From Chthoniobacteraceae bacterium (GTDB taxonomy: Bacteria; Verrucomicrobiota; Verrucomicrobiia; Chthoniobacterales; Chthoniobacteraceae): a stretch of DNA of 64,000 nucleotides. This document shows, piece after piece, positions 9,289 to 33,846 of the stretch. Under the pieces are notes generated by a model that saw nothing but the letters and a program-made list of their open reading frames with translations, did not search any database and had not been told where the DNA came from. The number at the start of each line of letters is the position of its first letter. Within the stretch, counting starts at the first letter, position 1. A program made the position numbers and the translations under genes. Location of the stretch: positions 17,865-81,864 of the forward strand of contig JBEBGD010000003.1 of NCBI GenBank assembly GCA_040081625.1. The letters are read 5' to 3'.

Positions 9289-10551
9289 TCAGCGACCCGG
9301 TCCGCGCGGTCCGCCGCCGCGACCATCCGTCGGTCCGCCGCGTTGTTGCGGCGGAGTGAAAGGCACGCCATTGGCCTGCGCCCACGTCTGCGCCGCCGCT
9401 CCGTCGCGCTGGCCCCACGAGCGAAGTAGATCGCGCATCGTGTCGTTGCGGCGTTCTTCCTCGGTGATGGATTGCGCCCACGCGATTGCGCCCTCGGGAT
9501 CGTTTCTCACCACGCGCTGCGCGTAGTCCTGCCGCGCGCGATCAAATTCCGCCGATGGCCCGAGTTGCTGGAGATAGCTGCCCGCCGCGACCGGATCTTT
9601 TTGCGCCCACTCACCGATTACCTCAGCCATCGCGCGCTGCCGGGTCTCGCCGGCCGGCAGGCCGTTTGCCCAGCCCGCCGCGTCCTTCGGATCCTTGTCC
9701 ACAAGCCGCTGGGCCAGCTCCCGCGCCATGCCCGCGCGGAACTGCTCGTCGGTCTGGTCAAGCACCGCGCTGCGTGCCGCTTCCAGCCCGCGCTGGCTGA
9801 TGAGTTCGCTGATCAGCGTGTCCGCCATCCGCCCGCGCGCGCGGCTGTAGGGCTGGTTCGCGGCCACGTCGATCGCGCGGTCGAGGCTCGACTTCGCCAG
9901 CGAGTTGACCAGCGTCGCGACCGCCCAGTTGCCATCTTCGCCGCCGGGCCCGATCCCGCGCTGTCCACCGCCTTCGGTCGGCGCGCCATTTTTCTCCGCC
10001 CACGCGATCGCCGCCTCGGGGCTGTCCTTCACCCACGTTTTGAGCACCGCGTTGAGCCCGTTGAACCGCGACCAGTCGCGCAAGCCCGACGCGAAGGTCG
10101 CCGCCTCCGCCGGATCGAGTTTCGTCCACTTCTGAAGCAGCATCGCCTGCTCGGTCATCCGGTAGCGCCCGTTCGGGTCCTTCGCGATGACTTCGAGCAC
10201 CGACTTGATTTCAGCCGGGTCCTTGAGCGCCTCGAGCAGGCGCAGGAAGCCGAGCATGCGCATTGATTCGTCGTCCTGCTTGAGCAGGAACTTCACGTGA
10301 TCCTCGAGCGAACGCCCGCCGATCACTTCCGCGATGCCGGTCGCGCGCGAGCCAAACCAGCCGGCCAGCGAAAACTCCTCGTCGCCGGAACTCTGCGTCG
10401 CGCCAGTCCCGGTCTGTGGCAAGGCGGCCACGGCTCCGGATTGCGTCACCCGCTCGATCACTCGCGTCGCCGAGCCCAGTCGCCCGAGGCTGAATGCGGC
10501 AGTCGCGGAGAGCAGCCAGGCGGCGGCGATGAGAAGGCGGCGTGATTTCAT
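9289..10551 (-). CDS. Secreted alpha-helical repeat protein of unknown function
   Basis: Signal peptide MKSRRLLIAAAWLLSATAAFS and about six degenerate repeats of the form K/R-x-DP-x-x-A-x-x-WA (for example KDSPEAAIAWAEKNG, NDPEGAIAWAQSIT), ending in a Gly/Pro/Arg-rich tail. Confidence 0.6.
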   Translation of the reverse strand: MKSRRLLIAAAWLLSATAAFSLGRLGSATRVIERVTQSGAVAALPQTGTGATQSSGDEEFSLAGWFGSRATGIAEVIGGRSLEDHVKFLLKQDDESMRMLGFLRLLEALKDPAEIKSVLEVIAKDPNGRYRMTEQAMLLQKWTKLDPAEAATFASGLRDWSRFNGLNAVLKTWVKDSPEAAIAWAEKNGAPTEGGGQRGIGPGGEDGNWAVATLVNSLAKSSLDRAIDVAANQPYSRARGRMADTLISELISQRGLEAARSAVLDQTDEQFRAGMARELAQRLVDKDPKDAAGWANGLPAGETRQRAMAEVIGEWAQKDPVAAGSYLQQLGPSAEFDRARQDYAQRVVRNDPEGAIAWAQSITEEERRNDTMRDLLRSWGQRDGAAAQTWAQANGVPFTPPQQRGGPTDGRGGGPRGPGR

Positions 10552-10620: not shown

Positions 10621-11676
10621 TTACAGCAGCACGTCGATGATCTCCAGTGCGCGGTGATAGACCTTGTGCCGGCTTCCGCCGCCGATCTCCCACAGCAGGA
10701 GACTCGTCGTCTCATTGCTCCCCGCGGGCAGCAGGTGATTATAGATGCTGCCATTTGCGAGCCGCACCTCGACGCGGAAAAACGCGCCCTGCTGATCGCG
10801 ATACACTCGCACGCTGCCGGTCTTCCCACGCAGTTCGCACACGCTGATCGAGCGCCCCGCCTCCGCGGTGAAGGCGATCCGCACGCGCTGGCCTTTCGGG
10901 TGCGTGAACGTGATCTCGTCGCCGTCGCGTTTCGGGTCCGCGAGCCGGAGCTGCGCTGCAAACCAGCTCGTGAGCAGCAGCGCCGTCGAGCGATTCGCCG
11001 GCGCGTGGCTGATGCCGATCGTGTGGAGCCCGTCGAGCACCGCGAGGTTTTCCTCGTGATCGAACATGAGCGCCAGCGCCTGCCGGAGGTGAAGCGAGCG
11101 CGCCCAGTTCAAGTCGCACAATACGAGGCTCGCCTGTGTCCCGTCGAGCGACGCGCGCAACCTGCGGAACTGCTCCTTCGGGTCCGCCCACTTCTGGCTG
11201 TCGAAGATGAGCCGGTCCACGCGCGCCCACAGCGTCCTGTCGATCTGCTCGGGAAACTCGCACTGCCACCAAAGGTAAAGCGGCAGATCGGAGTCGAGAT
11301 TCGCGAAGACCGTGTTCGCGATGCGCCCCGCCGTCTTCCCCTCGAAGAGCAGCGACACCTGCTCGCAGCAGATCTGTTTCGCGCCGGCCCGCGAGAGATG
11401 GCAGTGCGCGTTGATAAAGGCGGAGACTTTGTCCTCCGGCGCATCCGGCTCGTGGCAGATGAGCAGCGCACGGCACGCGTGCTCGCGCGTGAATTCGCTG
11501 ACGAAGGAAGTGTTATCCGCGCTCCCCGCGAGCCCGCGGAAATAGACTGCGAAGTTGATCAGCGACGCGCGTGTCTGCGTGCCGCCGGTGCTTTCCCATA
11601 GTTTCTTTAGCTCCTTGCCGACCGCGCCGACTTCCACCGGCACGCCGAGCGCTGAGGTGTCGAGATTCGCTGGCAT
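10621..11676 (-). CDS. opcA: Glucose-6-phosphate dehydrogenase assembly protein OpcA
   Basis: MPANLDTSALGVPVEVGAVGKELKKLWESTGGTQTRASLINFAVY matches the OpcA N-terminus. ATG 11676 lies 2 nt downstream of the zwf stop (TAA 11681-11679). The ORF-track start at 11823 would overlap zwf. Confidence 0.8.
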   Translation of the reverse strand: MPANLDTSALGVPVEVGAVGKELKKLWESTGGTQTRASLINFAVYFRGLAGSADNTSFVSEFTREHACRALLICHEPDAPEDKVSAFINAHCHLSRAGAKQICCEQVSLLFEGKTAGRIANTVFANLDSDLPLYLWWQCEFPEQIDRTLWARVDRLIFDSQKWADPKEQFRRLRASLDGTQASLVLCDLNWARSLHLRQALALMFDHEENLAVLDGLHTIGISHAPANRSTALLLTSWFAAQLRLADPKRDGDEITFTHPKGQRVRIAFTAEAGRSISVCELRGKTGSVRVYRDQQGAFFRVEVRLANGSIYNHLLPAGSNETTSLLLWEIGGGSRHKVYHRALEIIDVLL

Positions 11677-11678
11677 CG

Positions 11679-13277
11679 TTACATCCTCCGCCACGCGCGC
11701 CCGTCGCGTTCGAGCAGGTCGTCGGATTCCGTCGGGCCCCACGACCCGGCGGGATAAAAGGCAAGCGGCGGCGGCGTGTCGCTGTGGTGCCATGCATTCT
11801 CGATCCGGTCGATGAAAGCCCACGCATTCTCCACCTCGTCGCGCCGCGCAAAGAGCGTCGCATCACCAGCCATCGCATCGAGCAGCAGCCGCTCGTAAGC
11901 CTCCGGCGACGCCTTCCCGAAGCTCGTGCCGTAGGCGAAATCCATCTTCACCGGCTGGATGTCGAGCGCCGTGCCGGGCCGCTTCGCCTGGATGCGCAGC
12001 GAGATGCCCTCGTCCGGCTGGATGCGGATCACGAGCACGTTCGGTCCGATCTCCACGTCGCGGCTGAAAAGAATCGTCGGCACGTTCTTGAACTGAATGG
12101 CGATCTCCGTCGCGCCCTTCGCGAGCCGCTTCCCGAAGCGCACGTAGAACGGCACGCCCGCCCAGCGCCACGTGTCGATGTGGATCTTCAGCGCCGCGTA
12201 AGTCTCCGTCACCGATTGCGGATTCACGCGATCCTCGGCGCGATACGCGATCACATCCTTCCCGCCGATCGCGCCCGCGCTGTATTGCCCGCGCACCACA
12301 TCGCGCGCGACATCCTCCGGCGACATCGGTCGCAGCGACTTGAAGACCTTCACCTTCTCATCGCGGATCGCGTCCGCGCTCAACTCCACCGGCGGCTCCA
12401 TCGCCACGAGCGTGAGCAGTTGCAGCAGGTGATTCTGGATCATGTCGCGCAGCGCGCCGCTCGTCTCGTAGTAAGGCCCGCGCCCCTCGACCCCGAGCGG
12501 CTCCGCGCCGCTGATCTGCACGTGATCGATGTAACGCGAATTCCAAAGCGGCTCGAGGATCGCGTTGGTGAAACGCAGCACCATGATGTTCTGCGCCGTC
12601 TCCTTCCCGAGATAGTGGTCGATGCGATACGTCTCCTTTTCCGAGAAGACATCGTTGACCACCTTGTTGAGCGTCTGCGCGCTCGGCAGATCCTTGCCGA
12701 ACGGCTTCTCCACGATCACCCGCGCCCACGCGCCGTCCTTCGCCTTGTTCAGCCCGACCTCCGCGAGCTTCTGCAAAATCCCGGGGAACTCGCTCGGCGC
12801 GACCGAGAGATAAAACAGCCGATTGCCCTTCGTCCCGCTCGACGCATCGAGCGCGTCGAGTTTCGCCGCGAGCGACTTGTAGCCGTCGAAATTCCCGAAC
12901 TCGCTCGCGTGGTAATAAATCCTGCTCACGAACGAAGCCCACAGCTCGTCATTGACGCCCTGCCGCGAATACTTCCGCGCCTGCTCCTCGAGCTCCTTGC
13001 GGAAGCCCTCGTCCGTCTTCTCCCGCCGCGCGAATCCGATGACATTGAACGCCGTCGGCAGGTCGCCATCCGCGCCGAGATTGTAGAGCGCGGGGATGAG
13101 CTTGCGGAAAGTCAGGTCGCCCGACGCGCCGAAGATGACGACGTTGCAAGGCTGCGGCGTGGGCCGCGCGGAGAGGCCCTCACGCAGCGGGTTTAGGGAT
13201 GGATCGGTCGAGGTCGTTGTGCTCACGGTCCCGCGAGAGTGCGGACGCGCGTGGAGAATTTCAACAACCGTTTCCAA
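11679..13277 (-). CDS. zwf: Glucose-6-phosphate 1-dehydrogenase
   Basis: NADP motif VIFGASGDLTFRKLIPALYNL, the active-site block RIDHYLGKE, and EKPFG. An alternative GTG start at 13226 would remove about 17 N-terminal residues. Confidence 0.95.
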   Translation of the reverse strand: METVVEILHARPHSRGTVSTTTSTDPSLNPLREGLSARPTPQPCNVVIFGASGDLTFRKLIPALYNLGADGDLPTAFNVIGFARREKTDEGFRKELEEQARKYSRQGVNDELWASFVSRIYYHASEFGNFDGYKSLAAKLDALDASSGTKGNRLFYLSVAPSEFPGILQKLAEVGLNKAKDGAWARVIVEKPFGKDLPSAQTLNKVVNDVFSEKETYRIDHYLGKETAQNIMVLRFTNAILEPLWNSRYIDHVQISGAEPLGVEGRGPYYETSGALRDMIQNHLLQLLTLVAMEPPVELSADAIRDEKVKVFKSLRPMSPEDVARDVVRGQYSAGAIGGKDVIAYRAEDRVNPQSVTETYAALKIHIDTWRWAGVPFYVRFGKRLAKGATEIAIQFKNVPTILFSRDVEIGPNVLVIRIQPDEGISLRIQAKRPGTALDIQPVKMDFAYGTSFGKASPEAYERLLLDAMAGDATLFARRDEVENAWAFIDRIENAWHHSDTPPPLAFYPAGSWGPTESDDLLERDGRAWRRM

Positions 13278-13287
13278 CCCGCGGAAT

Positions 13288-15465
13288 CTACCCCGGCAGC
13301 GGATACCGTCGCGTGAGCGCGAGCACTTCCTCGCGGATATTCGTCAGCTCGGCGGGCTGCTCGCGGGCTTCGAGCGCGCGGTGCATCAGGTCGGCGATCT
13401 GGAACATCTCCTCCTCCTTCATCCCGCGCGTGGTCACCGCCGGCGTGCCGACACGGATGCCGCCGCCGAGCGTGATCTTCTCGGTGTCGAAGGGGATGCT
13501 GTTCTTGTTCACCGTGATGCCGGCGTGGTCGAGCACCTCGCACGCGAGCTTGCCGTTCAGCCCGCGCGGGCGCAGGTCGATCATCATGAGGTGATTGTCC
13601 GTCCCGCCGCTCACGAGCCGGTAGCCCTTGTGCGCGAGCGCGCCGGCGAGCGCCTTGGCGTTGCTCACGATCTGCGCGGCGTATTCCTTGAAGCTCGGCT
13701 GCAGCGCCTCGTGGAAGCACACGGCTTTCGCGGCGATCACGTGCTCGAGCGGGCCGCCCTGGATGCCGGGGAAGACCTGCGAGTCGATCGCCTTCGCATA
13801 CTTCTCCTTGCAGATGATGATGCCCGCGCGCGGGCCACGCAGGCTCTTGTGCGTCGTCGTCGTGGTGAAGTCGGCGATCGCGCACGGGTTCGGGTGCTGC
13901 CCGCCCGCGACGAGCCCGGCGATGTGCGCCATGTCCACGAAAAGATACGCGCCCACGCTGTCGGCGATCGCACGCATCCGGTCGAAGTCGATGATCCGCG
14001 GATAGGCGCTCGCGCCGGCGGTGATCATCTTCGGCTTGGTCTCGAGCGCGAGTTTCGCGAGTGCGTCGTAGTCGATCCGCTCGTCGGCCTGACTCACGCC
14101 GTAGTGGACGACTTCGTAGAAACGCCCGCTGAAGTTCGCCTTGTGCCCGTGCGTGAGATGGCCGCCGTGGCTGAGGTCCATCGTGAGGATGCGGTCGCCG
14201 ACTTGCAGCACGGAGAAATAGACGGCGGCATTCGCCTGCGAGCCGGAATGCGGCTGCACGTTTGCGTGTTCGGCGCCGGGGAAGAGCTGCTTCACGCGAT
14301 CGATCGCAAGCTGCTCGACCACGTCCACGTTTTCGCACCCGCCATACCAGCGCCGGCCGGGATAGCCTTCGGCGTATTTGTTCGTGAGGCAGGAGCCCTG
14401 CGCTTCCATCACCGCGCGGCTCACGAAGTTCTCGCTCGCGATCAGCTCGATGTTCTCGAACTGCCGCTTCTTCTCCGCCTCGATCGCCGCAAACACCGCC
14501 GGGTCCGCCTCCGCGAGCGACGCGCGCGGACTCGATCCGCACGTGAGCTTGCCCACGCGCCGCTCGTGCCGTCCGCCTTCAAACTGCGCCGCCACGAACG
14601 CTTCGACCAGCTTCGGCGCGTCGGCCGCGGTCACGTTGCGCGCGCCGAAGCAGAGCACGTTCGAGTTGTTGTGCTGCCGCGTCACGGTCGCGTCGGCGGG
14701 GTTGCTCACCAGCGCCGCGCGGATCTGCGGATGCCGGTTCGCCATGATGCTCATGCCGACTCCGCTCGAGCACATGAGCACGCCGAAGTCCGCGCGCCCC
14801 GCGATCACCTCCTGGCACACGGCCTCCGCGTAATCATTATAGTCCACCGAGTCCTTCGTGTTCGTGCCGAGATCGACGACCACGTCGCCGCGGCCAGTGA
14901 GGAAGGCATTCACCATCGCCTTCAAGTCGAGCGCGGCATGGTCGGCGCCGAGCGCGATGCGCATCGGGCGGGTGGAAGTCGGGGCGGGTGTGTCGGTGGA
15001 TGTGGTCATGGATTGCTGGTCGATGAAGTTGAGAATATTTGGCATCGCCGCGCGCAGCGCGTCGCGGCACTCGATGTAAGCGCCGATGCCCATGCCGATC
15101 GGGTCCGGCACGTCCGGCGAGCCGCCGCGGTCCGGCATGAAATCGCCCATCAGCCACAGCTTGCCTTCCGCCTCGGGGAAAAAGAGCCGGATCGTTTCGT
15201 AGTGCCCGCGCGTCATCGCGAAGATGTGCGTGGCCCACGCGACCGCGTCCTCATCGAGCTGCGCGCTGATGATGTCCGAGATGTCGAAGCCGAGCGCCCT
15301 GCACGCCTCGATGCCCGGCTCGCTCGGCCCCTGGCCTTCTCCCGCGCTCACGCCCGCCGACGCGACCTCGAAGTCCCCGCGCCCCTCCACCAGCTCACGA
15401 AAAAGCCCCTCAGCCATCGGGCTGCGGCAGATGTTTCCAGTGCAGACAAAGAGGACGTGTTTCAA
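13288..15465 (-). CDS. rpiB/glyA: In-frame three-domain fusion: low-molecular-weight phosphotyrosine/arginine phosphatase + ribose-5-phosphate isomerase B + serine hydroxymethyltransferase
   Basis: This is one uninterrupted reading frame. LMW-PTP: [19 protein letters not shown]...DPIG. RpiB: [15 protein letters not shown]...[13 protein letters not shown]...GGRHERRV. GlyA: [21 protein letters not shown]...[11 protein letters not shown]. The proposed TTG start at 15465 sits just before KHVLFVC, and the 90 codons upstream in the ORF track look non-coding. Confidence 0.8.
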
Positions 15466-15595
15466 GGGCGCGGACAGTAGAGCCGGCGACGTGCAAGTCA
15501 ATGTAGCCGCGGAGTTCCGCGACGAGTGGCTACAATTTTCATTTCCCGCCGCGCGAATGCGGCTACACCACTCGTTCCAAATGAACCCACGCACG

Positions 15596-16705
15596 ATGAA
15601 AGGCGTCGGCGTCGTTCCCGGGAAACGGGAACTGCGCATGATCGACCACCCAGAACCCGCGATCACCGCGGCCAACGAGTTGAAGATTCGCACGATCGAG
15701 GTCGGCATCTGCGGCACGGATCGGGAAATCTGCACCTTCGCCTACGGACGTCCGCCGGGGGACAGCGAATATCTTTTGCTCGGCCACGAGTGCCTCGGCG
15801 AAGTCGTCGAGATCGGCGAGGGCGTGACCGGGTTCAAGCCGGGCGATCTCGTGGTGCCGAGCGTGCGCCGGCCTTGCGGCGATCCGGACTGCGCGCCGTG
15901 TCGCGAGGGGCGGCAGGATTTTTGTTTCACGTGGCAGTTCACCGAGCGCGGGATCAATCAGCGCCACGGCTACATGACGGAGGTGTTCGTCGAGGAGGAT
16001 CGGTATCTCACGCCCGTGCCGACTGAACTGCGCGACGTGGCGGTGATGGCCGAGCCGCTGACGATCGCCGAGAAGGGACTCGCGCAAATCTGGCAGGTGC
16101 AGAAGCGGCTGCCGGGTTGGGAAAATGACGGCGGCAAGGGCCGCGGCTTTGGGCGAAACGCCGTGGTGCTCGGCGCGGGGCCGATCGGCCTGCTCGGCGC
16201 GATGAAGCTGCTGATCGAGGGCTTCCGCGTATTCATCTACTCGCGCTCGAAGGCGCCGAATTTCAAGGCGGACATCGCCGCGCAGATCGGCGCGGAATAC
16301 GTCTCGTCGCTGGAAGTGTCCGCCGAAGAACTCGCGAAGAAGGCCGGCAACATCGATCTCGTGTATGAGGCGGTCGGCGAAGGCAACGTCACCTTCGAGG
16401 TCATGCGCGAACTCGGTATCAACGGCGTCTTCATCATGACGGGCATCCCGGCCGAGAAGCCGCAGATCCCGATCTTCGCCGACACGATCATGCGGAACAT
16501 CACGCTCAAGAATCACGCGATCATCGGCACGGTGAACGCGAGCCCGCAGGCGTTTGCCGATGCGATCGAGGATCTCGGCGAGTTCAAGCGGCGCTGGCCG
16601 GCGGCGGTTGCTGCGTTGATCACCGGTCGTTTCGGCATCGACGCGCATCGCGAGCTGTTGATCGGGAAGGCGGCGGGGATCAAGAACGTGATTCAGTTCG
16701 CGTAG
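15596..16705 (+). CDS. Zinc-dependent medium-chain dehydrogenase, glucose-1-dehydrogenase/threonine-dehydrogenase-like
   Basis: [21 protein letters not shown]...[10 protein letters not shown]...[16 protein letters not shown]...[17 protein letters not shown] (structural Zn Cys cluster) and the Rossmann motif [14 protein letters not shown] 15596 is preferred over the 15224 ORF-track start. Confidence 0.85.
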
Positions 16706-26492: not shown

Positions 26493-26681
26493 ATGAAACG
26501 ATTCGTCCTCGCACTGCTCGCAGCGCCCACGCTTCTTCTCGCCCACCCCGGTCACTCGACCTTCGACCCGACGGCAGGACTGCCGCACGCCGGCCACGAG
26601 GCGGAAACCTTCGTCGTCGTGGGGCTGATCGCGACGGGACTGCTGCTCTCGCTGCGCGCGGTCCTCAGGCGCCGGCGCTAG
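26493..26681 (+). CDS. 62-aa His-rich mini-protein with a signal peptide and a C-terminal TM plus Arg cluster
   Basis: MKRFVLALLAAPTLLLA|HPGHSTFDPTAGLPHAGHEAE|TFVVVGLIATGLLLSLRAVL|RRRR. Third-position GC is high. Its 3' end overlaps the convergent arsC by 17 nt. Confidence 0.45.
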   Translation: MKRFVLALLAAPTLLLAHPGHSTFDPTAGLPHAGHEAETFVVVGLIATGLLLSLRAVLRRRR

Positions 26682-27114
26682 TCCTCAGCGCGTCGAGCCG
26701 CCCCGCGGCATAGGCCTCGAACACGCGCCGGATTTCGTCGCGCGTCTTGCGGAAGGCGGCGAGTTGGTGCGCGGTCGATCCTTTCGTGAAGGATGGATCG
26801 TCGAACGGGAAATGGTGGCGGTTCACCTGGCCGGGAAAGATCGGGCAGACCTGGTCGGCGTTGCCGCAAACGGTGATCGCAGTCTCGACCGGCAGGCTCA
26901 TGAATTCGCCGAGGTGCTTGGAGGTGTGCCGGCTGATGTCGATGTCGAGTTCGCGCATGACCTCAATCGCCAGCGGATGCACGTAGCCCGCGGGCTTCGA
27001 GCCGGCGCTGGCGATTCGGAAGTGCGCGCCGAGCAAATCGCGCAGAAAGCCTTCGCCGATATGGCTGCGGCAGGAGTTGCCCGTGCAGAGGATGAGGATG
27101 AGCGGCTTTTCCAT
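26665..27114 (-). CDS. arsC: Arsenate reductase, thioredoxin-coupled LMW-PTP type
   Basis: P-loop LCTGNSCRSHIGEG, plus the downstream Cys pair VCGNADQVCP and FDDP, as in Bacillus/Staphylococcus ArsC. Confidence 0.8.
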   Translation of the reverse strand: MEKPLILILCTGNSCRSHIGEGFLRDLLGAHFRIASAGSKPAGYVHPLAIEVMRELDIDISRHTSKHLGEFMSLPVETAITVCGNADQVCPIFPGQVNRHHFPFDDPSFTKGSTAHQLAAFRKTRDEIRRVFEAYAAGRLDALRTSAGA

Positions 27115-27165: not shown

Positions 27166-30100
27166 CTATTGGCTCACCTTCGCGCGCATGAACCGCGGTG
27201 TGCCGCCGCTGGCCGGGACCGAGTCGCGCACGCGGAGCGTGGTGGGCGAGTTTTCCTCGATGATGAGGCCGCCGCTGCTCCAACTCGCGGGCGCTGAAAG
27301 ATCGCTCGTCGCCAGCACCTCGTAGGTGATGTCGGTGGCGGCGGGATTCTTCGCGACGGAGAGGCGCAGGAAAATGTCGGGGCCGACGGCGGCAAGGTCG
27401 GTCACGACCGGGTTGGTGTTGGCGCTGCCCGGGTCGGTGCCGAATGCATATTCGGCCAGCGTGCAGAACCCGTCGCCATCGATGTCCGCGAGCGGCCCGG
27501 CGACCGCGGGGTTGTTCGCCTCCGCTCCGAATTGAGCAAAACGCCACGCGTCGATCGGCAGGTCTTGCAGCGTCAGCGCGACGGTCGGCGGCGCGGGAAG
27601 GTGATAGCCCGGATTCGCGGAGAGTGTGACGGAGACTGTCTCATCGCCCTCGGCGATGGTGTCCGCTTGCGGAGTGACGAAGATCTCCGCGGACGATGCA
27701 CCCGCAGGGATGACGAGGGAGCCGGGGAGGGCGACGAAGTCGGCGGAGTTCGCCGTGCCGCTGCTGGTGTAATAGACGGTGAGCGGCCCATCGAGCGCGC
27801 TGTCGCGGGAGACGATGATCTGCCCTGCCTGCACGCCGGCCTCGCTGGCGGGCACGCCTGCGACCGGTGCGAGCGTGGCGAACTGCACCTGAACCTGCAC
27901 CTCGTCGAAGCTGACGACCTCGCCGTCGTCGGCGGTGAGGCGCAGCGTGTAGTCGCCCTCGGCGGGGAAGCTCGCGGTGGTGGCCCGTGCGGCGGGATCC
28001 AGGAACGCGGCCGCCGCGGGGCCGCTGACTTGCGACCACTGCGTGCTGAGTTCGCCAGCGCCCGCATCAAATGCGGTGCCGGCGAGCGCCTTGAACGCCG
28101 CGCCCGGCACGGTCGATGTCGGCGCGGCATCGACGAGCGGCCCGGTGTTCTCCGGCGCACCGGTGACGCGCACGTCGGTGAACAAACCGCGCGCAGGCCG
28201 GGTGGTGTTGCCGCTGGTGACGGCGATGCCGGCGCGCAAAGTCGAGGCGAGCGCAATCGTCTGCGACGTGCCGACCTGCGTCCACGTGACCTTGTCCACT
28301 GAGTGCTCGGCGGTGAAAAGATCTCCGACGCGCCGCACGCGCAGCCAGCGCGGGCCAGGCGGCAGGCTGCTCGACGCCGTCGTCGCCATGCCGCCGACCG
28401 TGGCCCGGTAGATCCACGCGACGCTGCTCGTGGACACAAAAGTGAAAGCGACGAAACGCGAATTCGCGGCGGTGCTTTCGCGCAGCATCACTCCGAGCCG
28501 CGAACTGCCGAACGCACCGTCCACGCCCTCGAATCGCGCCACGATTTCGCCGTCGCCTTCCATCTCCGTGTGGGCGAAGTGGAATGAATCGCTGGTGCTC
28601 GTAATGCTCGAACCGCTGCCCTGGTTTTGCACGAAGCCTTCGCGCACGTCGTCGGCGCCGGTGGCGTTCGTGCCGGTGATGCCGATGTCGCCGCTGGTCC
28701 ACGGACTCGTGCCGGGCGCGACGACGACCGCGACTTCCGCGGAGCCTGATTGCAGCGCCACATCGGTCGCCGTGCATCGCAGCACGTAGCGGCCTCCGGC
28801 GGAAAACTTCGCCGTCGTCCCGGGCGCTCCGTTGTCTCCGAAAGTCGCGACGCCCGGTCCGCTCGCCATCGACCAGACGCTCGTGACCGAGCCCGGCGCG
28901 CCGTCATCGCTGACGAGTGCGTTGAGCATCAGCCCGATGCCCGCGGGCAGTGCGATTTCCGATTTCGCCGGGCTGGCGATGCGCACGGTGGGCGGATGAT
29001 CGGTGCCCGAGTCGAGGATGCTCAGCGCCGCATTCCCGGTGCCGGCGATGGAAAACTTCGTCGAGGGCAGCACGGTGATGATCGCGGTCTCGGTGCCTTC
29101 CACCGCGGCGTCGGTCAGCGGCGTGAGCGTGCGTGTGATCGAGCGCTGGCCGGCGCTGAGCGTCGCGGCGGTCGAGATTGCGTTGAAGTCGGCGCCCGAA
29201 GTCGCGGTTCCTGCGATGGCGAGATTGACCGTGAGCGCTGCGGTGAGCGGGCCGGTGCGCGAGATCGTGACGAATGCCGGCTCGCCGCCTTGCTCGTGAG
29301 CGACGGGATCGGTCGCGGCGATGCTGACGCGCGGTTCATTGTCGCGGATGAAGAGCGTGTGGTAGCTGCCGCTGCTGGTCAGGCCGGCGTTGGAGGCGTA
29401 GGCGATCTTGAGAGTGAGGTGTTCCTCCATTTCGGGCAGCAAGTCGTCCACGACCGTGGTGGAGATGTTCTTCTGCGTCTCGCCAGGCGCGAAGGTGAGC
29501 GTGCCGCCGACGAGGTTCGTATCGACGCCGCTGCCCGTCGCGCTGTTCGTGTCGATGATGTAATCGACGACGACGGGATTGACCGGGTCTGCGGCGGAGA
29601 GGACGACGGGGATCGCGAACGGCGCATCGCCCTCCGTTTTCACCGTGCTCCGCGAGGCGAAGGACGCGGTGCGCGCGAAGCCGGTCGTTTCATTGTCGGT
29701 GACGATCAACGAAGCGCTGCCGCTTTCGATGCTGTAACTGCCGGGCAGGATCGTCACGACGATCGTCTCCGCGCCTTCGGCGAGCGAGTCGTCGATGCCT
29801 GCGAGGTCCACGCTTACGCTTGATGCGAGGTCGGGGATCGTCGCGGTGCCCGGGAGCGCGGTGTAGTCCGCACCGGCGGTGGCTGTGCCGCTCAACTGAT
29901 AGGAAATATTCAGCGCGCCGGCGGTCGTCGCGGAGCCGGTGCTGCCGGTGCGGGATAAGAAAATCTTCGAGGCGCCGCCGTTCTCCGCCATCGTCACCGT
30001 GGTAAAGGAAACGTTGACCGTGTTGGCCTGGTCATCGTCGCGGATGACGAGGGTCGAAGCCGGCTGGAGCACGTCCACCTGGTAGGCTGGGTCTGGCGTG

Positions 30101-33100
30101 AGCGTCAGCGTCACCGTCTCGGCGTCCTCGATCAGCGCGTCGTTGATCGGCACCACCGTGATGGTGGACGAGGTGTTTCTCGCGATGCTGAGCGTGCCGG
30201 TGAGCGTGGCGAAATCGACGCCGGAGGTGGCGGTGCCGCTGATGATGTAGCGCACGATGATGTTGCCCGCGCCCGTGCCGGTGGTGGTGATGCGGAAGGC
30301 GCCGCTGGCGGTCGGTTCGTTGCAGATGCTGTCCGAGACGCCGACCGCGACGACGGTCAGGTCGTTGTCGTTGATGGTGACGGTCGCGAGGTTCGCCGCG
30401 TCGAGAAGCAGGCGCGGATCGTTGCGGAGCTGGAGGATGACCGTCTGCGCGGGTTCGCCGTGCGCGTCGTCCACCGGCACGATGAGGACCGGCGCGCTCG
30501 CCGCGCCGGCGGGGATCGTGATCGTGCCGGGCAGCGGGAGGTAGTCCACGCCGTGCAAGGCGGCGCCGCCGATCGTGTATTCCACGACGAGCGGATTTGT
30601 CGTGTCGCCGGTGCGCGAGATCGAGAAGAGCCCGGTGTCGGCGCCGCCTTCGGTTGCCGTCGCATCCGTGGCTGCGATCGAGACGGTCGGGATGTCGTCG
30701 TCGGCGATTCGGACGATGGCGGAGGAAGGCACGCCGACGCCGTAGAGCGTGCTGGTGCTCACGGTGAGCTGCACGGTCTCCTGGCCTTCGACGAGTGCGT
30801 CGTTCGTGGGATCGATCGTGACGGTGACCGACGCCTCGCCCGCGGGGATCGTCACCGGCGAGGCGATGCTTGCGTAGTCGGTTCCATTCGTCGCCGCGGC
30901 GGTGTTGCTGGTTCCGGCGAGCGCGATGGTGACGTTGAGGGCGCTGTCCACCGGGCCTGTGCGCCGGATTTCAAAGGTGCCCGGATCGCCCGCCTCATCC
31001 GCGTCGCCGTCGAGCGCGACGACCGAGACGCGGCTTGCCGAGCCGTTGGTGCCGGTGTCGTCGATCACCACGTCGGCGCCTGCCTTTCCGGTGATGGTGT
31101 AAGTCGTCCGCGGGATCAGCACCATGCGCAGCACCTCCGGGCCTTCGCGTGTCGTGTCGCTCACGGGAGTAACGGTGATTTCCAGCGTGTCCGAGCCGGC
31201 GGGGATCGTGAACAGTTCGAGCGGCGAGATCGTCGTCGTGTCCGCGGTCGGGCTGAGCGTGTAGTCGCCAGTCGATGCGTCGCCCTGCAGGTCGGTGTAA
31301 ACGACGAGCGCCGCGGTCGTGCTGCCGGTGCGCGTGAGGCGGAAGGTGCCCGGGTTTCCTCCGGTTTCGGCTGCGTCGGCGTCGGTCGCCTCCACCGTCA
31401 CGCGCACCGGCTCGATCGCGGTAAAGTCGCGCCCCGTGGGGCTGGTGCTGCCGGTGACCGCGTAGCTCGCGGGCGTGAACGTGTAGGCGCCGAGCACCGG
31501 CGTGAGCGTGACCGCGCCGGCGGCGAGATTGGTCACGACGTAGTCGCCGTTCGAGTCCGTCCACGCGCCGCGAAAGCTCGTGCCGCTCGATCCGTTCTGG
31601 ATGCGCACCTCGGGCATCGGGTTGCCGATTCCATCGAGCACGCGCCCGCTGGCGGTGAAGGTGGCCGGCGTGCCGACCGTGACGAGCAGCAGCCTGCTCG
31701 TCTCGCCGCCCTTCCGGTCGCTCACGATGCAGCGCACGGCATGGTGGCGCGCGGTGGTGAATTGCTTGCTCGTGTTCGCCGCGTTCGTCCCATACGTCGC
31801 GTCGCCGAAGTCCCAGAAATACGCGAGCGTGTCGCTGTCAGCATCGGTCGCATCGACGGTGAAGCTGACGGTGCCATTGACCGCCGGCGTCGTCGTGTCG
31901 GCCATGAGCGAGTTGATGACGGGCGCGTTGTTGCCGGGAAAATCGCCGGTGTTCACGACCACGTCGATGCTCTCCGGCGTCGTGCCGCCCTTCGCGATGG
32001 GCGTGATGTGAACGCCGCTCTCGCGATCCGAGAAAGTGCGGCCGATGACCACGGGGCCGTCGTTCTTTCCATCGGCGGAGCCGGGCGTCGTGTCGAGGAA
32101 CTGGCCGCCGCGATTGCTGCCCGCCGTGGTTGTGTCGAGATTCTGCCCCCACGCGCTCCAGCCGAGCGCGACGCCGTCTTTGAACCAGCGGTGATCGGCG
32201 TTGTATTTCTGCCGGAACTCGACCCAGTAATCACGATCCGCGTCCTTCGCGATCTTCAGCGCGTAGCGCCGCGCGGGATCGAGCACCGTCTGGTCCATCG
32301 GGAAGATGCGATAGGTGCCGTTGGCGGAGACGGTGGTGACGACTTCGTTCGGGAGCCAGCCGAGCAGGTTTTTGTGGGGCGTCATGAAGTGGCCCTTGTT
32401 GCCGCTTACCGCGCCGCTGCTGCCCATCACGTCGTAGCTGTTGCCGTATTCGCCGTTCGCGCCGCCGCCGATCACGTCCCTGGCCATGCTAGCGTTCCAG
32501 GCAACCCCTGAGGCCTTTCCCGAATCCCACGAGTTGCCATGCCAGACGCCGACGTTGTGGCCGATCTCGTGGGCGAAGACACCGAGGCTCGTGCTCTTGA
32601 GCCACACATTCGATCCGCCCACGCTGCCCAGCCCGCCGAAGCTGCCCGGACCGCCGGTGTAGATGACCGTGTAGTGCGAGAAGTTGTCCGGGTTGTAGCC
32701 CATGCGCCGCGCGGCGTCCTTCGCATCGGTCATGATCGGAGTATTGCTGCCGTTCGCCGTGTAATCCGCGGCATACCACGCCTCCGAGCGCGGCAGGATG
32801 ATGAGCGGCGGCACCGAAGCGAGGTAATAGATCTTCCCGAAACTGATCTCCTGGAAGTAGCTGTTGAGCTGCGAGATCGCAGTCCACGCCGCGGCTTCCG
32901 TCTGCGGCTCCTGCTGGTCGTCGGGAAATGCGAGCCGCATGTAAAGCAGCGTGCGCGGTCCGTTCGCGAAGGAACTTGCCGCCGGCGCCGTGATGCCCGC
33001 CGCTCCGCCCGTGCCGCCTTCGGCCGCGACCATCTCTTCCTCGAAGACGCGGATGTGTCCACCTTCGCACATATAGATCACGCGCTCGCCGACCTGCACG

Positions 33101-33846
33101 ACGTCAGCTTCCGCGCTGACCGGCTCCGCCGGCTCGCTCACCGCCGTCGTCAGCCCGGACACCGGGCACTGCGTCACGCGCTCTGCGTCCGCGGGCGGGA
33201 GCTCGCCCACTTCCAGCACGCGCACCGGGCTCTCCGCGAGCGCCATCACGCGATCGATCGCAACGCCATGCACGGGCACTTGCGAGAGCGAGTTCTGCCC
33301 GGTCCGCCGGCCATAGACAAACGTGCGCCACTCCTCGTCTCCCACTCGCGTGAAGCGCCGCACCACCGGCTCCGCGGGATCGCTGCCGGGCGACACCGCC
33401 TGCACCTCGACATCCGCCGTCGCCTGCACGCGCTTCTCGAGTTGGGCGACGACTTCGGGCGGAAGCTGCCGCCGCACGACCATCGGCACCGCCGTCTCGA
33501 TCGCGCGGCGCGGATCGTCCTGGATGAGTTGCTTGAAAACTGGCCGTCGCGCCTGCGCCTGCCGCACGCCTTCCGCGACCAGCGAGGCTCGCTCAGCGGG
33601 TGCGGCTGCGAGGAAGCGCTGCGTCCACGCGGAGAAGCCGGGCAGAACATCCGCGGTCGGCGCTGGATTCGCGACAACTGCCGATGGAGCACGCGCGATC
33701 ACGCCGGGCCGCGTCTCCGCAGCGGCACTCGCGGCACCTTGCGCAGGCGCCGGTATCTGCGACGCGCGGCGGGCAGTGCGCAGCGCCAGCACGACGCCAG
33801 CGACGAGGGCAACGGAAAGGACGGCGATCAGGATGCGAGAACGCAT
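27166..33846 (-). CDS. Giant (2226 aa) membrane-anchored multidomain protein: metzincin-like protease + PKD + CarboxypepD_reg-like + about 8 Calx-beta + ConA-like lectin module + conserved C-terminal module
   Basis: N-terminal TM anchor MRSRILIAVLSVALVAGVVLAL, the Zn motif HEIGHNVGVWH and a PKD motif FWDFGD. The Calx-beta signature repeats (F.v.RTG......l.V.y...GTAt.G.DY......tIpAG.....v.v.p..D...EG.E.v.l.L). One lectin-like module has W-LRVRR-G...S.D..W. The C-terminus is DIDGDGF..AEYAFGTDPG...RFMRAKVSQ. Confidence 0.9.
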   Translation of the reverse strand: MRSRILIAVLSVALVAGVVLALRTARRASQIPAPAQGAASAAAETRPGVIARAPSAVVANPAPTADVLPGFSAWTQRFLAAAPAERASLVAEGVRQAQARRPVFKQLIQDDPRRAIETAVPMVVRRQLPPEVVAQLEKRVQATADVEVQAVSPGSDPAEPVVRRFTRVGDEEWRTFVYGRRTGQNSLSQVPVHGVAIDRVMALAESPVRVLEVGELPPADAERVTQCPVSGLTTAVSEPAEPVSAEADVVQVGERVIYMCEGGHIRVFEEEMVAAEGGTGGAAGITAPAASSFANGPRTLLYMRLAFPDDQQEPQTEAAAWTAISQLNSYFQEISFGKIYYLASVPPLIILPRSEAWYAADYTANGSNTPIMTDAKDAARRMGYNPDNFSHYTVIYTGGPGSFGGLGSVGGSNVWLKSTSLGVFAHEIGHNVGVWHGNSWDSGKASGVAWNASMARDVIGGGANGEYGNSYDVMGSSGAVSGNKGHFMTPHKNLLGWLPNEVVTTVSANGTYRIFPMDQTVLDPARRYALKIAKDADRDYWVEFRQKYNADHRWFKDGVALGWSAWGQNLDTTTAGSNRGGQFLDTTPGSADGKNDGPVVIGRTFSDRESGVHITPIAKGGTTPESIDVVVNTGDFPGNNAPVINSLMADTTTPAVNGTVSFTVDATDADSDTLAYFWDFGDATYGTNAANTSKQFTTARHHAVRCIVSDRKGGETSRLLLVTVGTPATFTASGRVLDGIGNPMPEVRIQNGSSGTSFRGAWTDSNGDYVVTNLAAGAVTLTPVLGAYTFTPASYAVTGSTSPTGRDFTAIEPVRVTVEATDADAAETGGNPGTFRLTRTGSTTAALVVYTDLQGDASTGDYTLSPTADTTTISPLELFTIPAGSDTLEITVTPVSDTTREGPEVLRMVLIPRTTYTITGKAGADVVIDDTGTNGSASRVSVVALDGDADEAGDPGTFEIRRTGPVDSALNVTIALAGTSNTAAATNGTDYASIASPVTIPAGEASVTVTIDPTNDALVEGQETVQLTVSTSTLYGVGVPSSAIVRIADDDIPTVSIAATDATATEGGADTGLFSISRTGDTTNPLVVEYTIGGAALHGVDYLPLPGTITIPAGAASAPVLIVPVDDAHGEPAQTVILQLRNDPRLLLDAANLATVTINDNDLTVVAVGVSDSICNEPTASGAFRITTTGTGAGNIIVRYIISGTATSGVDFATLTGTLSIARNTSSTITVVPINDALIEDAETVTLTLTPDPAYQVDVLQPASTLVIRDDDQANTVNVSFTTVTMAENGGASKIFLSRTGSTGSATTAGALNISYQLSGTATAGADYTALPGTATIPDLASSVSVDLAGIDDSLAEGAETIVVTILPGSYSIESGSASLIVTDNETTGFARTASFASRSTVKTEGDAPFAIPVVLSAADPVNPVVVDYIIDTNSATGSGVDTNLVGGTLTFAPGETQKNISTTVVDDLLPEMEEHLTLKIAYASNAGLTSSGSYHTLFIRDNEPRVSIAATDPVAHEQGGEPAFVTISRTGPLTAALTVNLAIAGTATSGADFNAISTAATLSAGQRSITRTLTPLTDAAVEGTETAIITVLPSTKFSIAGTGNAALSILDSGTDHPPTVRIASPAKSEIALPAGIGLMLNALVSDDGAPGSVTSVWSMASGPGVATFGDNGAPGTTAKFSAGGRYVLRCTATDVALQSGSAEVAVVVAPGTSPWTSGDIGITGTNATGADDVREGFVQNQGSGSSITSTSDSFHFAHTEMEGDGEIVARFEGVDGAFGSSRLGVMLRESTAANSRFVAFTFVSTSSVAWIYRATVGGMATTASSSLPPGPRWLRVRRVGDLFTAEHSVDKVTWTQVGTSQTIALASTLRAGIAVTSGNTTRPARGLFTDVRVTGAPENTGPLVDAAPTSTVPGAAFKALAGTAFDAGAGELSTQWSQVSGPAAAAFLDPAARATTASFPAEGDYTLRLTADDGEVVSFDEVQVQVQFATLAPVAGVPASEAGVQAGQIIVSRDSALDGPLTVYYTSSGTANSADFVALPGSLVIPAGASSAEIFVTPQADTIAEGDETVSVTLSANPGYHLPAPPTVALTLQDLPIDAWRFAQFGAEANNPAVAGPLADIDGDGFCTLAEYAFGTDPGSANTNPVVTDLAAVGPDIFLRLSVAKNPAATDITYEVLATSDLSAPASWSSGGLIIEENSPTTLRVRDSVPASGGTPRFMRAKVSQ
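32539..32571 (-). other. Metzincin zinc-binding motif HEIGHNVGVWH in giant protein 1
   Basis: Codons read on the minus strand (cacgagatcggccacaacgtcggcgtctggcat). All three His residues, the catalytic Glu and the Gly are present. Confidence 0.85.

What the first reader, a model, noticed from the sequence alone, without database searches (positions are those of the whole stretch)
13288..15465. Single reading frame fusing LMW phosphatase, RpiB and serine hydroxymethyltransferase
No stop codon separates three normally independent enzymes. They are an LMW-PTP (CTGNICRS P-loop, DPIG), RpiB (from MRIALGADH at 14964 to GGRHERRV) and GlyA (from about 14530). The RpiB-GlyA junction is tight ([37 protein letters not shown]) and offers no ATG for GlyA, only a GTG at the V of RRVGKL. 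From memory, the Bacillus subtilis genes ywlE (LMW arginine phosphatase), ywlF (rpiB) and glyA are neighbours, so this fusion would be a Rosetta-stone-type link for a conserved but unexplained association. A trifunctional 725-aa protein coupling pentose-phosphate and one-carbon metabolism with a phosphatase is unusual.
Basis: partly seen in the sequence, partly recalled or inferred. Interest (0 to 1): 0.6.

Follow-up and report, generated by a model that had tools for sequence, protein, structure and literature searches.

The report
Known phosphatase–RpiB–SHMT fusion gene
One real gene joins a small protein phosphatase, ribose-5-phosphate isomerase B and serine hydroxymethyltransferase into a single 78-kDa protein, but this fusion is standard across Verrucomicrobiota and was noted in print in 2008, so it is genuine, biochemically untested and not new.

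Summary
Window 13288-15465 (minus strand) is one stop-free 725-codon gene (TTG start, TAG stop, 78 kDa). It encodes three complete domains: LMW phosphatase, RpiB and SHMT, each with its catalytic residues. It is not a sequencing artefact. The same single frame occurs in 87 of 108 related species-level genome loci examined, from 91% down to about 57% identity, in Chthoniobacterales, Pedosphaerales/Limisphaerales, Verrucomicrobiales and probably Methylacidiphilum.

The architecture is already published (Minf_1669, Hou et al. 2008; Limisphaera, 2026), and this scan has met it before on other genomes.

- The genome has only this one SHMT and no RpiA.
- The phosphatase domain is closest to YwlE-type arginine phosphatases, and it is the only non-ArsC LMW phosphatase in a genome that carries mcsA-mcsB. 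Its P-loop, however, has Ile where YwlE has the pArg-determining Thr.
- Relatives show sibling architectures (RpiB-SHMT, phosphatase-SHMT, a decayed RpiB remnant, and in-frame stop-separated forms). These point to repeated fusion, fission and domain loss from a ywlE-rpiB-glyA-like gene order.
- AlphaFold gives three folded domains on two flexible linkers.

Function of the linkage is untested. Interest is low to moderate.

The parts
13288..15465 (-). Whole fusion gene: 725 codons plus TAG stop (13288-13290), TTG start at 15465-15463; 78.06 kDa, pI 5.8
   Evidence: The same start position (GTG/TTG) is seen in orthologues. The database gene call is 725 aa (P0002).
15013..15465 (-). LMW phosphatase domain (aa 1-151): P-loop C8-T-G-N-I-C-R14-S, general-acid D121-P122 (DPIG); YwlE-like
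   Evidence: Pfam PF01451 6.8e-26. Best solved relatives are YwlE arginine phosphatases: 4pic 4.8e-22, 1zgg/4kk3 7e-17. AF2 pLDDT is about 90 or more. D121 and P122 are invariant in 85 homologues. The P-loop is present in-frame in 97 loci.
14965..15012 (-). Linker 1 (aa 152-167, [16 protein letters not shown]): Ser/Thr/Pro-rich, variable in sequence
   Evidence: Alignment. AF2 pLDDT is below 50 for residues 152-164.
14548..14964 (-). RpiB domain (aa 168-306): D175-H176, catalytic C232 (MCSSGVG), H265-N266, R299-H300..R303 (GGRHERR)
   Evidence: Pfam PF02502 1.6e-48, profile positions 1-138 of 138. TIGR01120 rpiB equivalog scores 153 bits against a cut-off of 138.65. The listed residues are invariant in 85 homologues. 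AF2 pLDDT is about 85-96.
14518..14547 (-). Linker 2 (aa 307-316, [10 protein letters not shown]): short, variable, no ATG
   Evidence: AF2 pLDDT is below 50 for residues 307-313.
13291..14517 (-). Serine hydroxymethyltransferase domain (aa 317-725): PLP-lysine K540 in [12 protein letters not shown]; the only SHMT in the assembly
   Evidence: Pfam PF00464 1.2e-163, profile positions 1-398 of 399. NF000586 scores 621.9 bits against a cut-off of 335. K540 and flanking residues are invariant. PF00464 has a single match in the whole assembly.
11679..13277 (-). Context: zwf (glucose-6-phosphate dehydrogenase). Its open frame begins 10 nt after the fusion's stop, so it is probably co-transcribed.
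   Evidence: PF02781 2.4e-127 and PF00479 8.1e-61; spacing. The adjacency is not general: it is seen in 18 of 71 related loci.
10621..11823 (-). Context: opcA-like G6PD assembly protein, next gene in the same direction
   Evidence: PF10128 1.2e-18 and PF20171 6.8e-11.

Best explanation
This is a genuine, anciently fused gene. It is an orthologue of Methylacidiphilum infernorum Minf_1669 and is translated from a TTG start into one 725-residue, 78-kDa polypeptide. The polypeptide carries three independently folded, catalytically competent enzymes joined by two short flexible linkers.

The three enzymes are:
1. A YwlE-like low-molecular-weight phosphatase.
2. A Cys-type ribose-5-phosphate isomerase B.
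3. The cell's only serine hydroxymethyltransferase.

The fusion most likely arose by loss of the stop codons in a ywlE-rpiB-glyA-type gene string. It has since been modified in relatives by RpiB loss, re-splitting, or absence of the phosphatase.

Its likely effect is obligatory 1:1:1 co-production, and probably co-assembly through the RpiB and SHMT dimer interfaces, of two enzymes that supply nucleotide synthesis: ribose-5-P for PRPP, and glycine plus methylene-THF. This is not substrate channelling, because the reactions share no intermediate.

The phosphatase domain is most likely the counter-enzyme of the genome's McsA/McsB protein-arginine kinase. That step is inferred, at roughly even odds.

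Shown: the frame, the domains, the catalytic residues, the conservation, the uniqueness of SHMT, the presence of McsA/McsB, and flexible linkers in a model.

Inferred: translation as a single polypeptide, activity of each domain, oligomeric state, the phosphatase's substrate, and the selective benefit.
For: - Frame and domains: one stop-free frame holds three full-length domain matches, and GC3 is 0.90.
- Conservation in close relatives: the frame is uninterrupted at 65-92% identity in 16 genomes, 14 from the same family and two from two further families of the order.
- Conservation more widely: 71 of 80 named species genomes keep it, from Chthoniobacteraceae to Pedosphaera and Limisphaerales. 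At least 24 further genomes of a 301-genome phylum sample also keep it.
- Database depth: 1971 database proteins of fusion length match the N-terminal two domains.
- Catalytic residues: D121/P122, D175/H176, C232, H265/N266, R299/H300/R303 and K540 are invariant in 85 homologues. The CxGNxCRS P-loop is present in 97 loci.
- Structure model: AF2 gives high confidence for the phosphatase and RpiB domains and pLDDT below 50 only at 152-164 and 307-313 between domains; pTM is 0.48.
- No conserved in-frame start at the RpiB-SHMT junction.
- Gene content: there is one SHMT in the assembly and no RpiA.
- Phosphatase assignment: nearest solved structures are YwlE arginine phosphatases. McsB scores over its equivalog cut-off (415.6 against 385) and sits next to an McsA-like gene. 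Only two LMWPc genes exist, and the other is ArsC. McsB is present in 283 of 301 genomes of the phylum.
- Prior descriptions.
Against: - No protein-level data exist for any member. A single polypeptide, its activity and its oligomeric state are all inferred.
- The P-loop has Ile at position 5, where YwlE and DARP have the Thr that confers phosphoarginine preference; the Thr-to-Ile mutation shifts DARP towards phosphotyrosine. Across 97 loci this position is I 57, V 21, T 12, S 7.
- A second, Glu-type RpiB exists in the genome, so the fused RpiB need not be the main isomerase.
- Relatives that dropped RpiB or the phosphatase from the fusion show that no particular pairing is indispensable.
- AF2 predicts no defined inter-domain packing (pTM 0.48).
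Confidence: 0.8

Rival explanations
1. Assembly or sequencing artefact. In this reading, three separate genes (phosphatase, rpiB, glyA) appear fused because stop codons or frameshifts were miscalled in this metagenome-style assembly.
For: The genome is a 213-contig draft, and reads could not be examined. One related MAG (L044) does carry an in-frame stop in the RpiB-SHMT linker.
Against: The same uninterrupted frame occurs in 87 independent assemblies, including complete chromosomes and cultured strains (Chthoniobacter flavus protein P0046, 732 aa). Linker lengths are conserved while their sequences vary. There is no start codon or ribosome-binding signal for a separate glyA.
Confidence: 0.01
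2. One gene but several proteins. The long ORF would mainly yield separate enzymes, either through internal translation initiation near the junctions or through proteolytic cleavage of the exposed linkers. The fusion would then be only a compact operon.
For: The linkers are predicted to be disordered and exposed. In-frame GTG/TTG/ATG codons occur somewhere near the RpiB-SHMT junction in 70 of 87 loci, and an ATG in 35. Sister lineages function with the phosphatase as a separate gene (Haloferula).
Against: Positions of these candidate starts are scattered and not conserved, and only 12 of 87 have any Shine-Dalgarno-like motif. In this gene the only candidates are a GTG inside the conserved RpiB RRV motif and one that would delete about 15 N-terminal SHMT residues. 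Frame preservation over a whole phylum would not be needed if separate products were the aim.
Confidence: 0.1
3. The phosphatase domain is not an arginine phosphatase. It could be a conventional phosphotyrosine phosphatase. Alternatively it could act on a small phosphate ester tied to its partners' chemistry, for example a sugar phosphate, phosphoserine or pyridoxal phosphate. In that case the fusion would reflect a metabolic rather than a proteostasis link.
For: Ile sits at P-loop position 5, the residue typical of pTyr-specific LMW-PTPs, and 78 of 97 loci have I or V there. No canonical SerB scored over its cut-off in this genome. The phosphatase stays fused directly to SHMT in lineages that lost RpiB. 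From memory, PLP binds LMW-PTP active sites tightly (Zhou and Van Etten 1999); this was not checked here.
Against: Overall sequence is much closer to YwlE-type enzymes than to Wzb, YfkJ or mammalian pTyr phosphatases. McsA/McsB are present and no other candidate arginine phosphatase was found. LMW-PTPs are reported not to act on pSer/pThr. SerB absence is weak evidence, because 6 of 14 control genomes also lack a match over the cut-off.
Confidence: 0.35

Closest known systems
Minf_1669 of Methylacidiphilum infernorum V4 (Hou et al. 2008, Biol Direct 3:26; PMC2474590)
   Same: It has the same three domains in one protein: LMW phosphatase, RpiB and SHMT. It belongs to the same phylum. In the phylum sample, 2.2-2.5 Mb genomes of family f21 (genus g50 at 2.2-2.4 Mb, probably Methylacidiphilum) carry the full-length single frame at 54-56% identity.
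   Different: It was only mentioned as 'unusual' in a genome paper, with no experiment. There it was read as a serine-pathway/pentose-phosphate link for methylotrophy. The present organism is a Chthoniobacteraceae heterotroph-type genome, so that reading cannot be general.
RpiB-SHMT two-domain proteins of Limisphaera and other Verrucomicrobiota (Life 2026;16:1543; PMC13608581)
   Same: They share the RpiB-to-SHMT junction and the same order of domains. This is the most widespread form among the 150 best rows listed for the phylum sample, in frames of about 560-630 aa.
   Different: They lack the fused phosphatase. In Haloferula and others the phosphatase is a separate gene just upstream, in the same frame, ended by a stop and followed by a spacer of roughly 25-45 codons.
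Phosphatase-SHMT two-domain proteins of other Chthoniobacterales families
   Same: They have the same YwlE-like domain and the same SHMT in one frame, in 9 genomes.
   Different: The RpiB module is missing. One genome (G020/L024) keeps a decayed RpiB-like remnant without the catalytic Cys or the RQHNN motif. On the SHMT tree these sit among three-domain forms, which suggests RpiB loss, although tree support is weak.
YwlE/PtpB protein arginine phosphatases with the ywlE-rpiB-glyA gene neighbourhood of Firmicutes
   Same: They give the best structural-database matches to the N-terminal domain. S. aureus ptpB neighbours glyA, and rpiB sits directly upstream of glyA in a mycoplasma-derived minimal genome. 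McsB is present as the partner kinase.
   Different: The genes are separate there. YwlE has Thr at P-loop position 5, whereas this protein has Ile. The B. subtilis gene order is from memory only.

Membership tests
Low-molecular-weight phosphatase (Pfam LMWPc, PF01451) | Profile match over the gathering score across the whole domain | tested here: met
   91.6 bits against a cut-off of 23.2, profile positions 1-142 of 144.
Low-molecular-weight phosphatase (Pfam LMWPc, PF01451) | C-X5-R-S P-loop near the N-terminus and a DP general-acid loop | tested here: met
   C8-TGNIC-R14-S15 and D121-P122. D121 and P122 are invariant in homologues. The P-loop is present in 97 loci.
YwlE-type protein arginine phosphatase | Closest sequence relatives are characterised arginine phosphatases | tested here: met
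   4pic 'Arginine phosphatase YwlE' scores 4.8e-22 and B. subtilis YwlE 7e-17. Wzb, YfkJ and human LMW-PTP score 1e-8 to 1e-11.
YwlE-type protein arginine phosphatase | Thr at P-loop position 5 (the pArg specificity determinant) | tested here: not met
   This protein has Ile (CTGNICRS). Across orthologues the position is I 57, V 21, T 12, S 7. The determinant is described in PMC7772506.
YwlE-type protein arginine phosphatase | Cognate kinase McsB (with McsA) in the same genome | tested here: met
   McsB NF002194 scores 415.6 bits against a cut-off of 385. An adjacent McsA-like gene scores 1.6e-42, below the Bacillus-model cut-off.
YwlE-type protein arginine phosphatase | Hydrolysis of phosphoarginine in preference to pTyr | not testable with these tools
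   This needs enzyme assays.
Ribose-5-phosphate isomerase B (TIGR01120 / PF02502) | Equivalog profile over its cut-off, full length | tested here: met
   TIGR01120 scores 153 bits against 138.65. PF02502 covers profile positions 1-138 of 138.
Ribose-5-phosphate isomerase B (TIGR01120 / PF02502) | Catalytic Cys (E. coli Cys66 type), the Asp-His pair, the His-Asn motif and the phosphate-binding Arg residues | tested here: met
   C232, D175/H176, H265/N266 and R299/R303 are all invariant in 85 homologues. The correspondence to E. coli numbering is from memory.
Serine hydroxymethyltransferase (PF00464 / NF000586) | Full-length profile match over the cut-off | tested here: met
   NF000586 scores 621.9 bits against 335, profile positions 1-403 of 404. 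PF00464 scores 544.8 bits.
Serine hydroxymethyltransferase (PF00464 / NF000586) | PLP-binding lysine in the T-T-H-K-[ST]-L-R-G-P-R motif | tested here: met
   K540 in [12 protein letters not shown], invariant.
Verrucomicrobial phosphatase-RpiB-SHMT fusion (Minf_1669 type) | All three domains in this order in one uninterrupted frame, with orthologues sharing it | tested here: met
   literature.
Verrucomicrobial phosphatase-RpiB-SHMT fusion (Minf_1669 type) | Produced as a single polypeptide | not testable with these tools
   No proteomic data are held.

The most novel reading that the evidence does not exclude
The YwlE-like domain may be the phylum's only phosphoarginine phosphatase, and its permanent tethering to the cell's only SHMT (with or without RpiB) may be functional rather than incidental. 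One possibility is that it keeps its essential partner free of McsB degradation tags. Another is that it ties removal of arginine-phosphate marks to the abundance of the nucleotide-precursor enzymes. Alternatively, the domain works on a small phosphate ester used by its partners. That would also reinterpret the long-unexplained ywlE-rpiB-glyA neighbourhood of Firmicutes.
Probability: 0.12. Interest if true: 0.6.

Novelty: already known. Interest (0 to 1): 0.22.

Why it matters
The association of a YwlE-type phosphatase with rpiB and glyA is conserved from Firmicutes to Verrucomicrobiota and has no accepted explanation. The fusion proves that the three products tolerate being one molecule, and perhaps benefit from it. 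It also offers a ready-made construct for testing whether the phosphatase acts on, or with, its partners.

For annotation, the gene should be named as a trifunctional or multidomain protein, not 'ribose 5-phosphate isomerase B' or 'glyA' alone.

About half of the database entries start at an internal ATG that cuts off the catalytic P-loop. This would make the phosphatase look dead in comparative work.

None of this changes the fact that the architecture itself is known.

Tried and rejected
Cross-genome conservation was used instead.
- Artefact hypothesis: rejected on conservation.
- Conserved internal start for SHMT: looked for in 87 loci and not found.
- Phosphoserine-phosphatase idea for the N-terminal domain: no canonical SerB over its cut-off. 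The control shows that 6 of 14 model genomes also lack one, and LMW-PTPs are reported inactive on pSer. It is kept only as a minor rival.
- Idea that zwf adjacency explains the fusion: G6PD lies downstream in only 18 of 71 related loci, so this is local context and not part of the system.
- Idea that the fused RpiB is the sole R5P isomerase: RpiA is indeed absent, but a second Glu-type RpiB exists.
- Co-occurrence of McsB with the fusion type: uninformative, because McsB is nearly universal in the phylum (283 of 301).
- SHMT-domain tree to order the architectures: informative only as a trend, since just 7 of 43 inner branches are well supported.
- AF2 was run to look for a defined inter-domain arrangement; none was predicted (pTM 0.48).
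- Literature search for any biochemical study of the fusion, or for arginine-phosphorylated SHMT: nothing found in the held library.
- The B. subtilis ywlE-ywlF-glyA order could not be verified with the tools and remains from memory.
Full report
**Observation**

On the minus strand of the window, the ORF listing shows a stop-free frame at 13288..15735. The sequence read-out and translation show that the frame contains, in order:
- an LMW-phosphatase P-loop (CTGNICRS) and DPIG loop;
- an RpiB module (MRIALGADH ... GGRHERRV);
- a complete SHMT (ELIASENF ... [12 protein letters not shown]).

Pfam places three full-length domains in this one frame: LMWPc 6.8e-26, LacAB_rpiB 1.6e-48 (profile 1-138 of 138) and SHMT 1.2e-163 (1-398 of 399). 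NCBIfam agrees: the rpiB equivalog scores 153 bits against a cut-off of 138.65, and SHMT scores 621.9 against 335.

The most likely start is the TTG at 15465. It gives [15 protein letters not shown], 725 aa and 78.06 kDa, ending at the TAG at 13288-13290, and GC3 is 0.90. Orthologues have GTG or TTG at the same position, and the database gene call for this very sequence is also 725 aa (P0002). Near the RpiB-SHMT junction the only in-frame start-type codons are the GTG of RRV and a GTG in PAVFA.

**Is it an artefact?**

Comparative evidence settles the question.
- Among 30 relatives, a full-length match (query 1-725) with no stop was found at 65-92% identity in 14 genomes of the same family and in two further families of the order. 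I confirmed the single frame by extracting the ORFs.
- A scan of species-representative genomes returned 80 loci. In 71 of them one stop-to-stop frame spans all three domains.
- Named carriers place the window in Verrucomicrobiota, family Chthoniobacteraceae. The nearest is 'Verrucomicrobia bacterium Bin_38_5' at 91%.
- The fusion also occurs in Pedosphaera, Limisphaerales and Verrucomicrobiales MAGs.
- A protein search restricted to the first 330 residues, but to proteins of fusion length, found 1971 hits. The best 120 all carry PF01451 + PF02502 + PF00464, including 'ribose 5-phosphate isomerase B [Chthoniobacter flavus]', 732 aa.
- Linkers keep their length but not their sequence.

A miscalled stop is excluded.

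**Anatomy**

The domain borders in protein and window coordinates are:

| Part | Residues | Window coordinates |
|---|---|---|
| Phosphatase | 1-151 | 15013-15465 |
| Linker [16 protein letters not shown] | 152-167 | 14965-15012 |
| RpiB | 168-306 | 14548-14964 |
| Linker [10 protein letters not shown] | 307-316 | 14518-14547 |
| SHMT | 317-725 | 13291-14517 |

In an alignment of 85 homologues the following residues are invariant:
- the general-acid D121-P122;
- RpiB residues D175/H176, C232, H265/N266 and R299/H300/R303;
- the SHMT PLP-lysine K540.

The P-loop is missing from the 'invariant' list only because 56 of 114 database entries were called from the internal ATG of P-MAEG, which cuts it off. 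At the DNA level CxGNxCRS lies in frame in 97 loci.

AlphaFold2 with this alignment gives mean pLDDT 78.6. The phosphatase and RpiB domains score about 85-96. Confidence drops below 50 at exactly 152-164 and 307-313. pTM is 0.48, meaning three folded beads on two flexible linkers with no predicted fixed packing.

**Genome context**

- The assembly is 96% complete. It has one SHMT match only, this gene, so the fusion must be functional.
- It has no RpiA.
- It does have a second, Glu-type RpiB: a 271-aa protein with an extra C-terminal domain on another contig. TIGR02133 scores 165.7 against a cut-off of 168.2, and the RpiB subfamily model scores 179.6 against 135.
- Only two LMWPc-family genes exist: this domain and an ArsC-type arsenate reductase at window 26665..27114.
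- The genome encodes McsB, with the protein arginine kinase equivalog at 415.6 bits against a cut-off of 385. An McsA-like activator lies immediately upstream. Clp_N-bearing unfoldases are also present.
- McsB is found in 283 of 301 sampled genomes of the phylum. In Methylacidiphilum it is stress-induced next to a clp unfoldase gene.
- Downstream of the fusion lie zwf (its frame opens 10 nt after the stop), then opcA, an unassigned ORF, dnaG and rpoD. A G6PD gene follows the fusion in only 18 of 71 related loci.

**The phosphatase domain**

Its best solved relatives are arginine phosphatases:
- Geobacillus YwlE 4pic, 4.8e-22;
- a Thermoanaerobacter homologue, 4egs, 8e-20;
- B. subtilis YwlE 1zgg/4kk3, 7e-17.

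These score far ahead of Wzb, YfkJ or mammalian LMW-PTP. With McsA/McsB present and no other candidate, the simplest reading is that this domain is the McsB counter-phosphatase.

Against this, the P-loop position 5 is Ile. In YwlE and Drosophila DARP a Thr at this position confers phosphoarginine preference, and T11I shifts DARP towards phosphotyrosine (PMC7772506). Across 97 loci the position is I 57, V 21, T 12, S 7. I therefore hold the pArg assignment at about even odds and keep a pTyr or small-ester substrate as a live rival.

**Sibling architectures and history**

The phylum sample and the extracted loci show five states:
- phosphatase-RpiB-SHMT in one frame;
- phosphatase, then a stop, then RpiB-SHMT;
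- RpiB-SHMT alone;
- phosphatase-SHMT without RpiB, in nine Chthoniobacterales genomes;
- unfused glyA in two Chthoniobacterales genomes (G019, G030), each with the phosphatase as a separate gene just upstream; the weaker best scores of some other families in the phylum sample (about 1e-160) may also reflect an SHMT-only match, but those rows were not listed.

For the stop-separated form, all five loci I inspected keep the phosphatase in the same frame, with a spacer of roughly 25-45 codons before a new ATG. About 29 of the rows listed show the whole match crossed by one to three in-frame stops; I did not locate those stops.

One genome (G020/L024) has a decayed RpiB-like middle module lacking the catalytic Cys and the RQHNN motif.

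On an SHMT-domain tree, the phosphatase-SHMT forms and the decayed form sit inside a Chthoniobacterales clade otherwise made of three-domain forms, while three-domain forms also occur in the other orders. This fits loss of RpiB from a three-domain ancestor. However, only 7 of 43 inner branches are well supported, so it is a trend and not a result.

The in-frame stop-separated forms fit fusion and fission by single point changes in a collinear ywlE-rpiB-glyA string. That gene order is supported here only indirectly: S. aureus ptpB lies next to glyA, and rpiB lies upstream of glyA in the JCVI minimal genome. The B. subtilis order is from my memory.

**How it most likely works**

- Shown: one gene, three intact catalytic modules, flexible linkers in the model, the sole SHMT, phylum-wide purifying conservation, and the partner kinase in the genome.
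- Inferred: one 78-kDa chain, which probably dimerises through SHMT and RpiB. Both are homo-oligomers in characterised bacteria; this is established knowledge and was not tested here.
- The gain is probably fixed co-expression and co-localisation of two suppliers of nucleotide synthesis: ribose-5-P, and glycine plus one-carbon units.
- It is not channelling, because the reactions share no intermediate.
- The phosphatase rides along as the arginine-phosphatase of the McsB system, or, less likely, acts on a different substrate.

**Comparison with what is known**

The architecture is in print. Hou et al. 2008 describe Minf_1669 of Methylacidiphilum infernorum as 'an unusual protein' with an SHMT domain plus LMW-phosphatase and RpiB domains. 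No other paper in the library cites that locus tag. A 2026 Limisphaera paper notes RpiB with an added SHMT domain 'in different verrucomicrobia'. I found no biochemical study.

This scan's earlier notes report the same fusion on other genomes with the same verdict. I had reached the 2008 paper independently, and I followed the Limisphaera lead from one of those notes.

**Verdict**

- the McsA/McsB link together with the Ile-for-Thr discrepancy;
- the uniqueness of SHMT in this genome;
- the family of derived architectures, including a decaying RpiB module;
- the systematic start-codon miscalls in databases.

Interest is 0.22.

Noticed in passing
Database proteins P0003-P0121, compared with loci L031-L110: 56 of 114 full-length database entries of this fusion begin at MAEGLF, an internal ATG. 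This cuts off the catalytic CxGNxCRS P-loop, although the P-loop lies in frame upstream in the DNA, where the true starts are GTG or TTG. These entries make the phosphatase domain look inactive.
   Followed up: partly
L085, L109, L073, L089, L079 (Haloferula and other Verrucomicrobiales): The phosphatase gene ends in a stop. It is followed by a spacer of roughly 25-45 codons and a new ATG for RpiB-SHMT, and all five loci keep the same reading frame. About 29 rows listed for the phylum sample also show the whole match crossed by one to three in-frame stops. This looks like fission or fusion by point mutation; stop read-through was not examined.
   Followed up: partly
L024 (G020:C199), middle of the 745-aa frame: An RpiB-like middle module has lost the catalytic Cys motif and the RQHNN motif and carries a low-complexity HSTQ repeat. 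It looks like a decaying domain inside an otherwise intact phosphatase-SHMT protein.
   Followed up: partly
L044 (CBINJX010000058.1): One related MAG has a single in-frame stop inside the RpiB-SHMT linker (…GGRHGRRVEKL*KLGRGISNHSLAECDPEI…), with no obvious start for the SHMT part. This could be an assembly error, a pseudogene or read-through.
   Followed up: no
L013 1528..2343 (+) = own genome contig C187: A second RpiB of the Glu-type (GGSGNGEQ, actinobacterial-like; TIGR02133 165.7 bits against a cut-off of 168.2) is fused to an extra C-terminal domain of about 125 aa. I guessed from the sequence that this domain is hotdog/thioesterase-like; it was not tested.
   Followed up: partly
window 26665..27114 (-): A thioredoxin-type arsenate reductase (ArsC pI258 family, 3e-35) is the only other LMWPc-fold gene in the assembly.
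   Followed up: yes
window 27166..33846 (-): A 2226-aa ORF has a signal-like N-terminus, a zinc-metalloprotease-like HEIGHNVGVWH motif and many tandem repeat modules of about 100 aa. It is probably a giant secreted or surface protein.
   Followed up: no
window 9289..10551 (-): A 420-aa ORF between opcA and dnaG has no Pfam or NCBIfam match at 1e-5. It may not be a real gene in this GC-rich sequence.
   Followed up: no
PDB entry 4egs: The chain is deposited under the name 'Ribose 5-phosphate isomerase RpiB', but it aligns over its whole length with the LMW-phosphatase (YwlE-like) domain and not with RpiB. The name seems to be carried over from the neighbouring or fused gene.
   Followed up: no
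L113 (own genome contig C104) 1150..2741 (-): An mcsA-mcsB pair (protein arginine kinase and activator) occurs in a Verrucomicrobium, and McsB is found in 283 of 301 sampled genomes of the phylum. The pArg system is usually discussed as a Gram-positive feature.
   Followed up: partly
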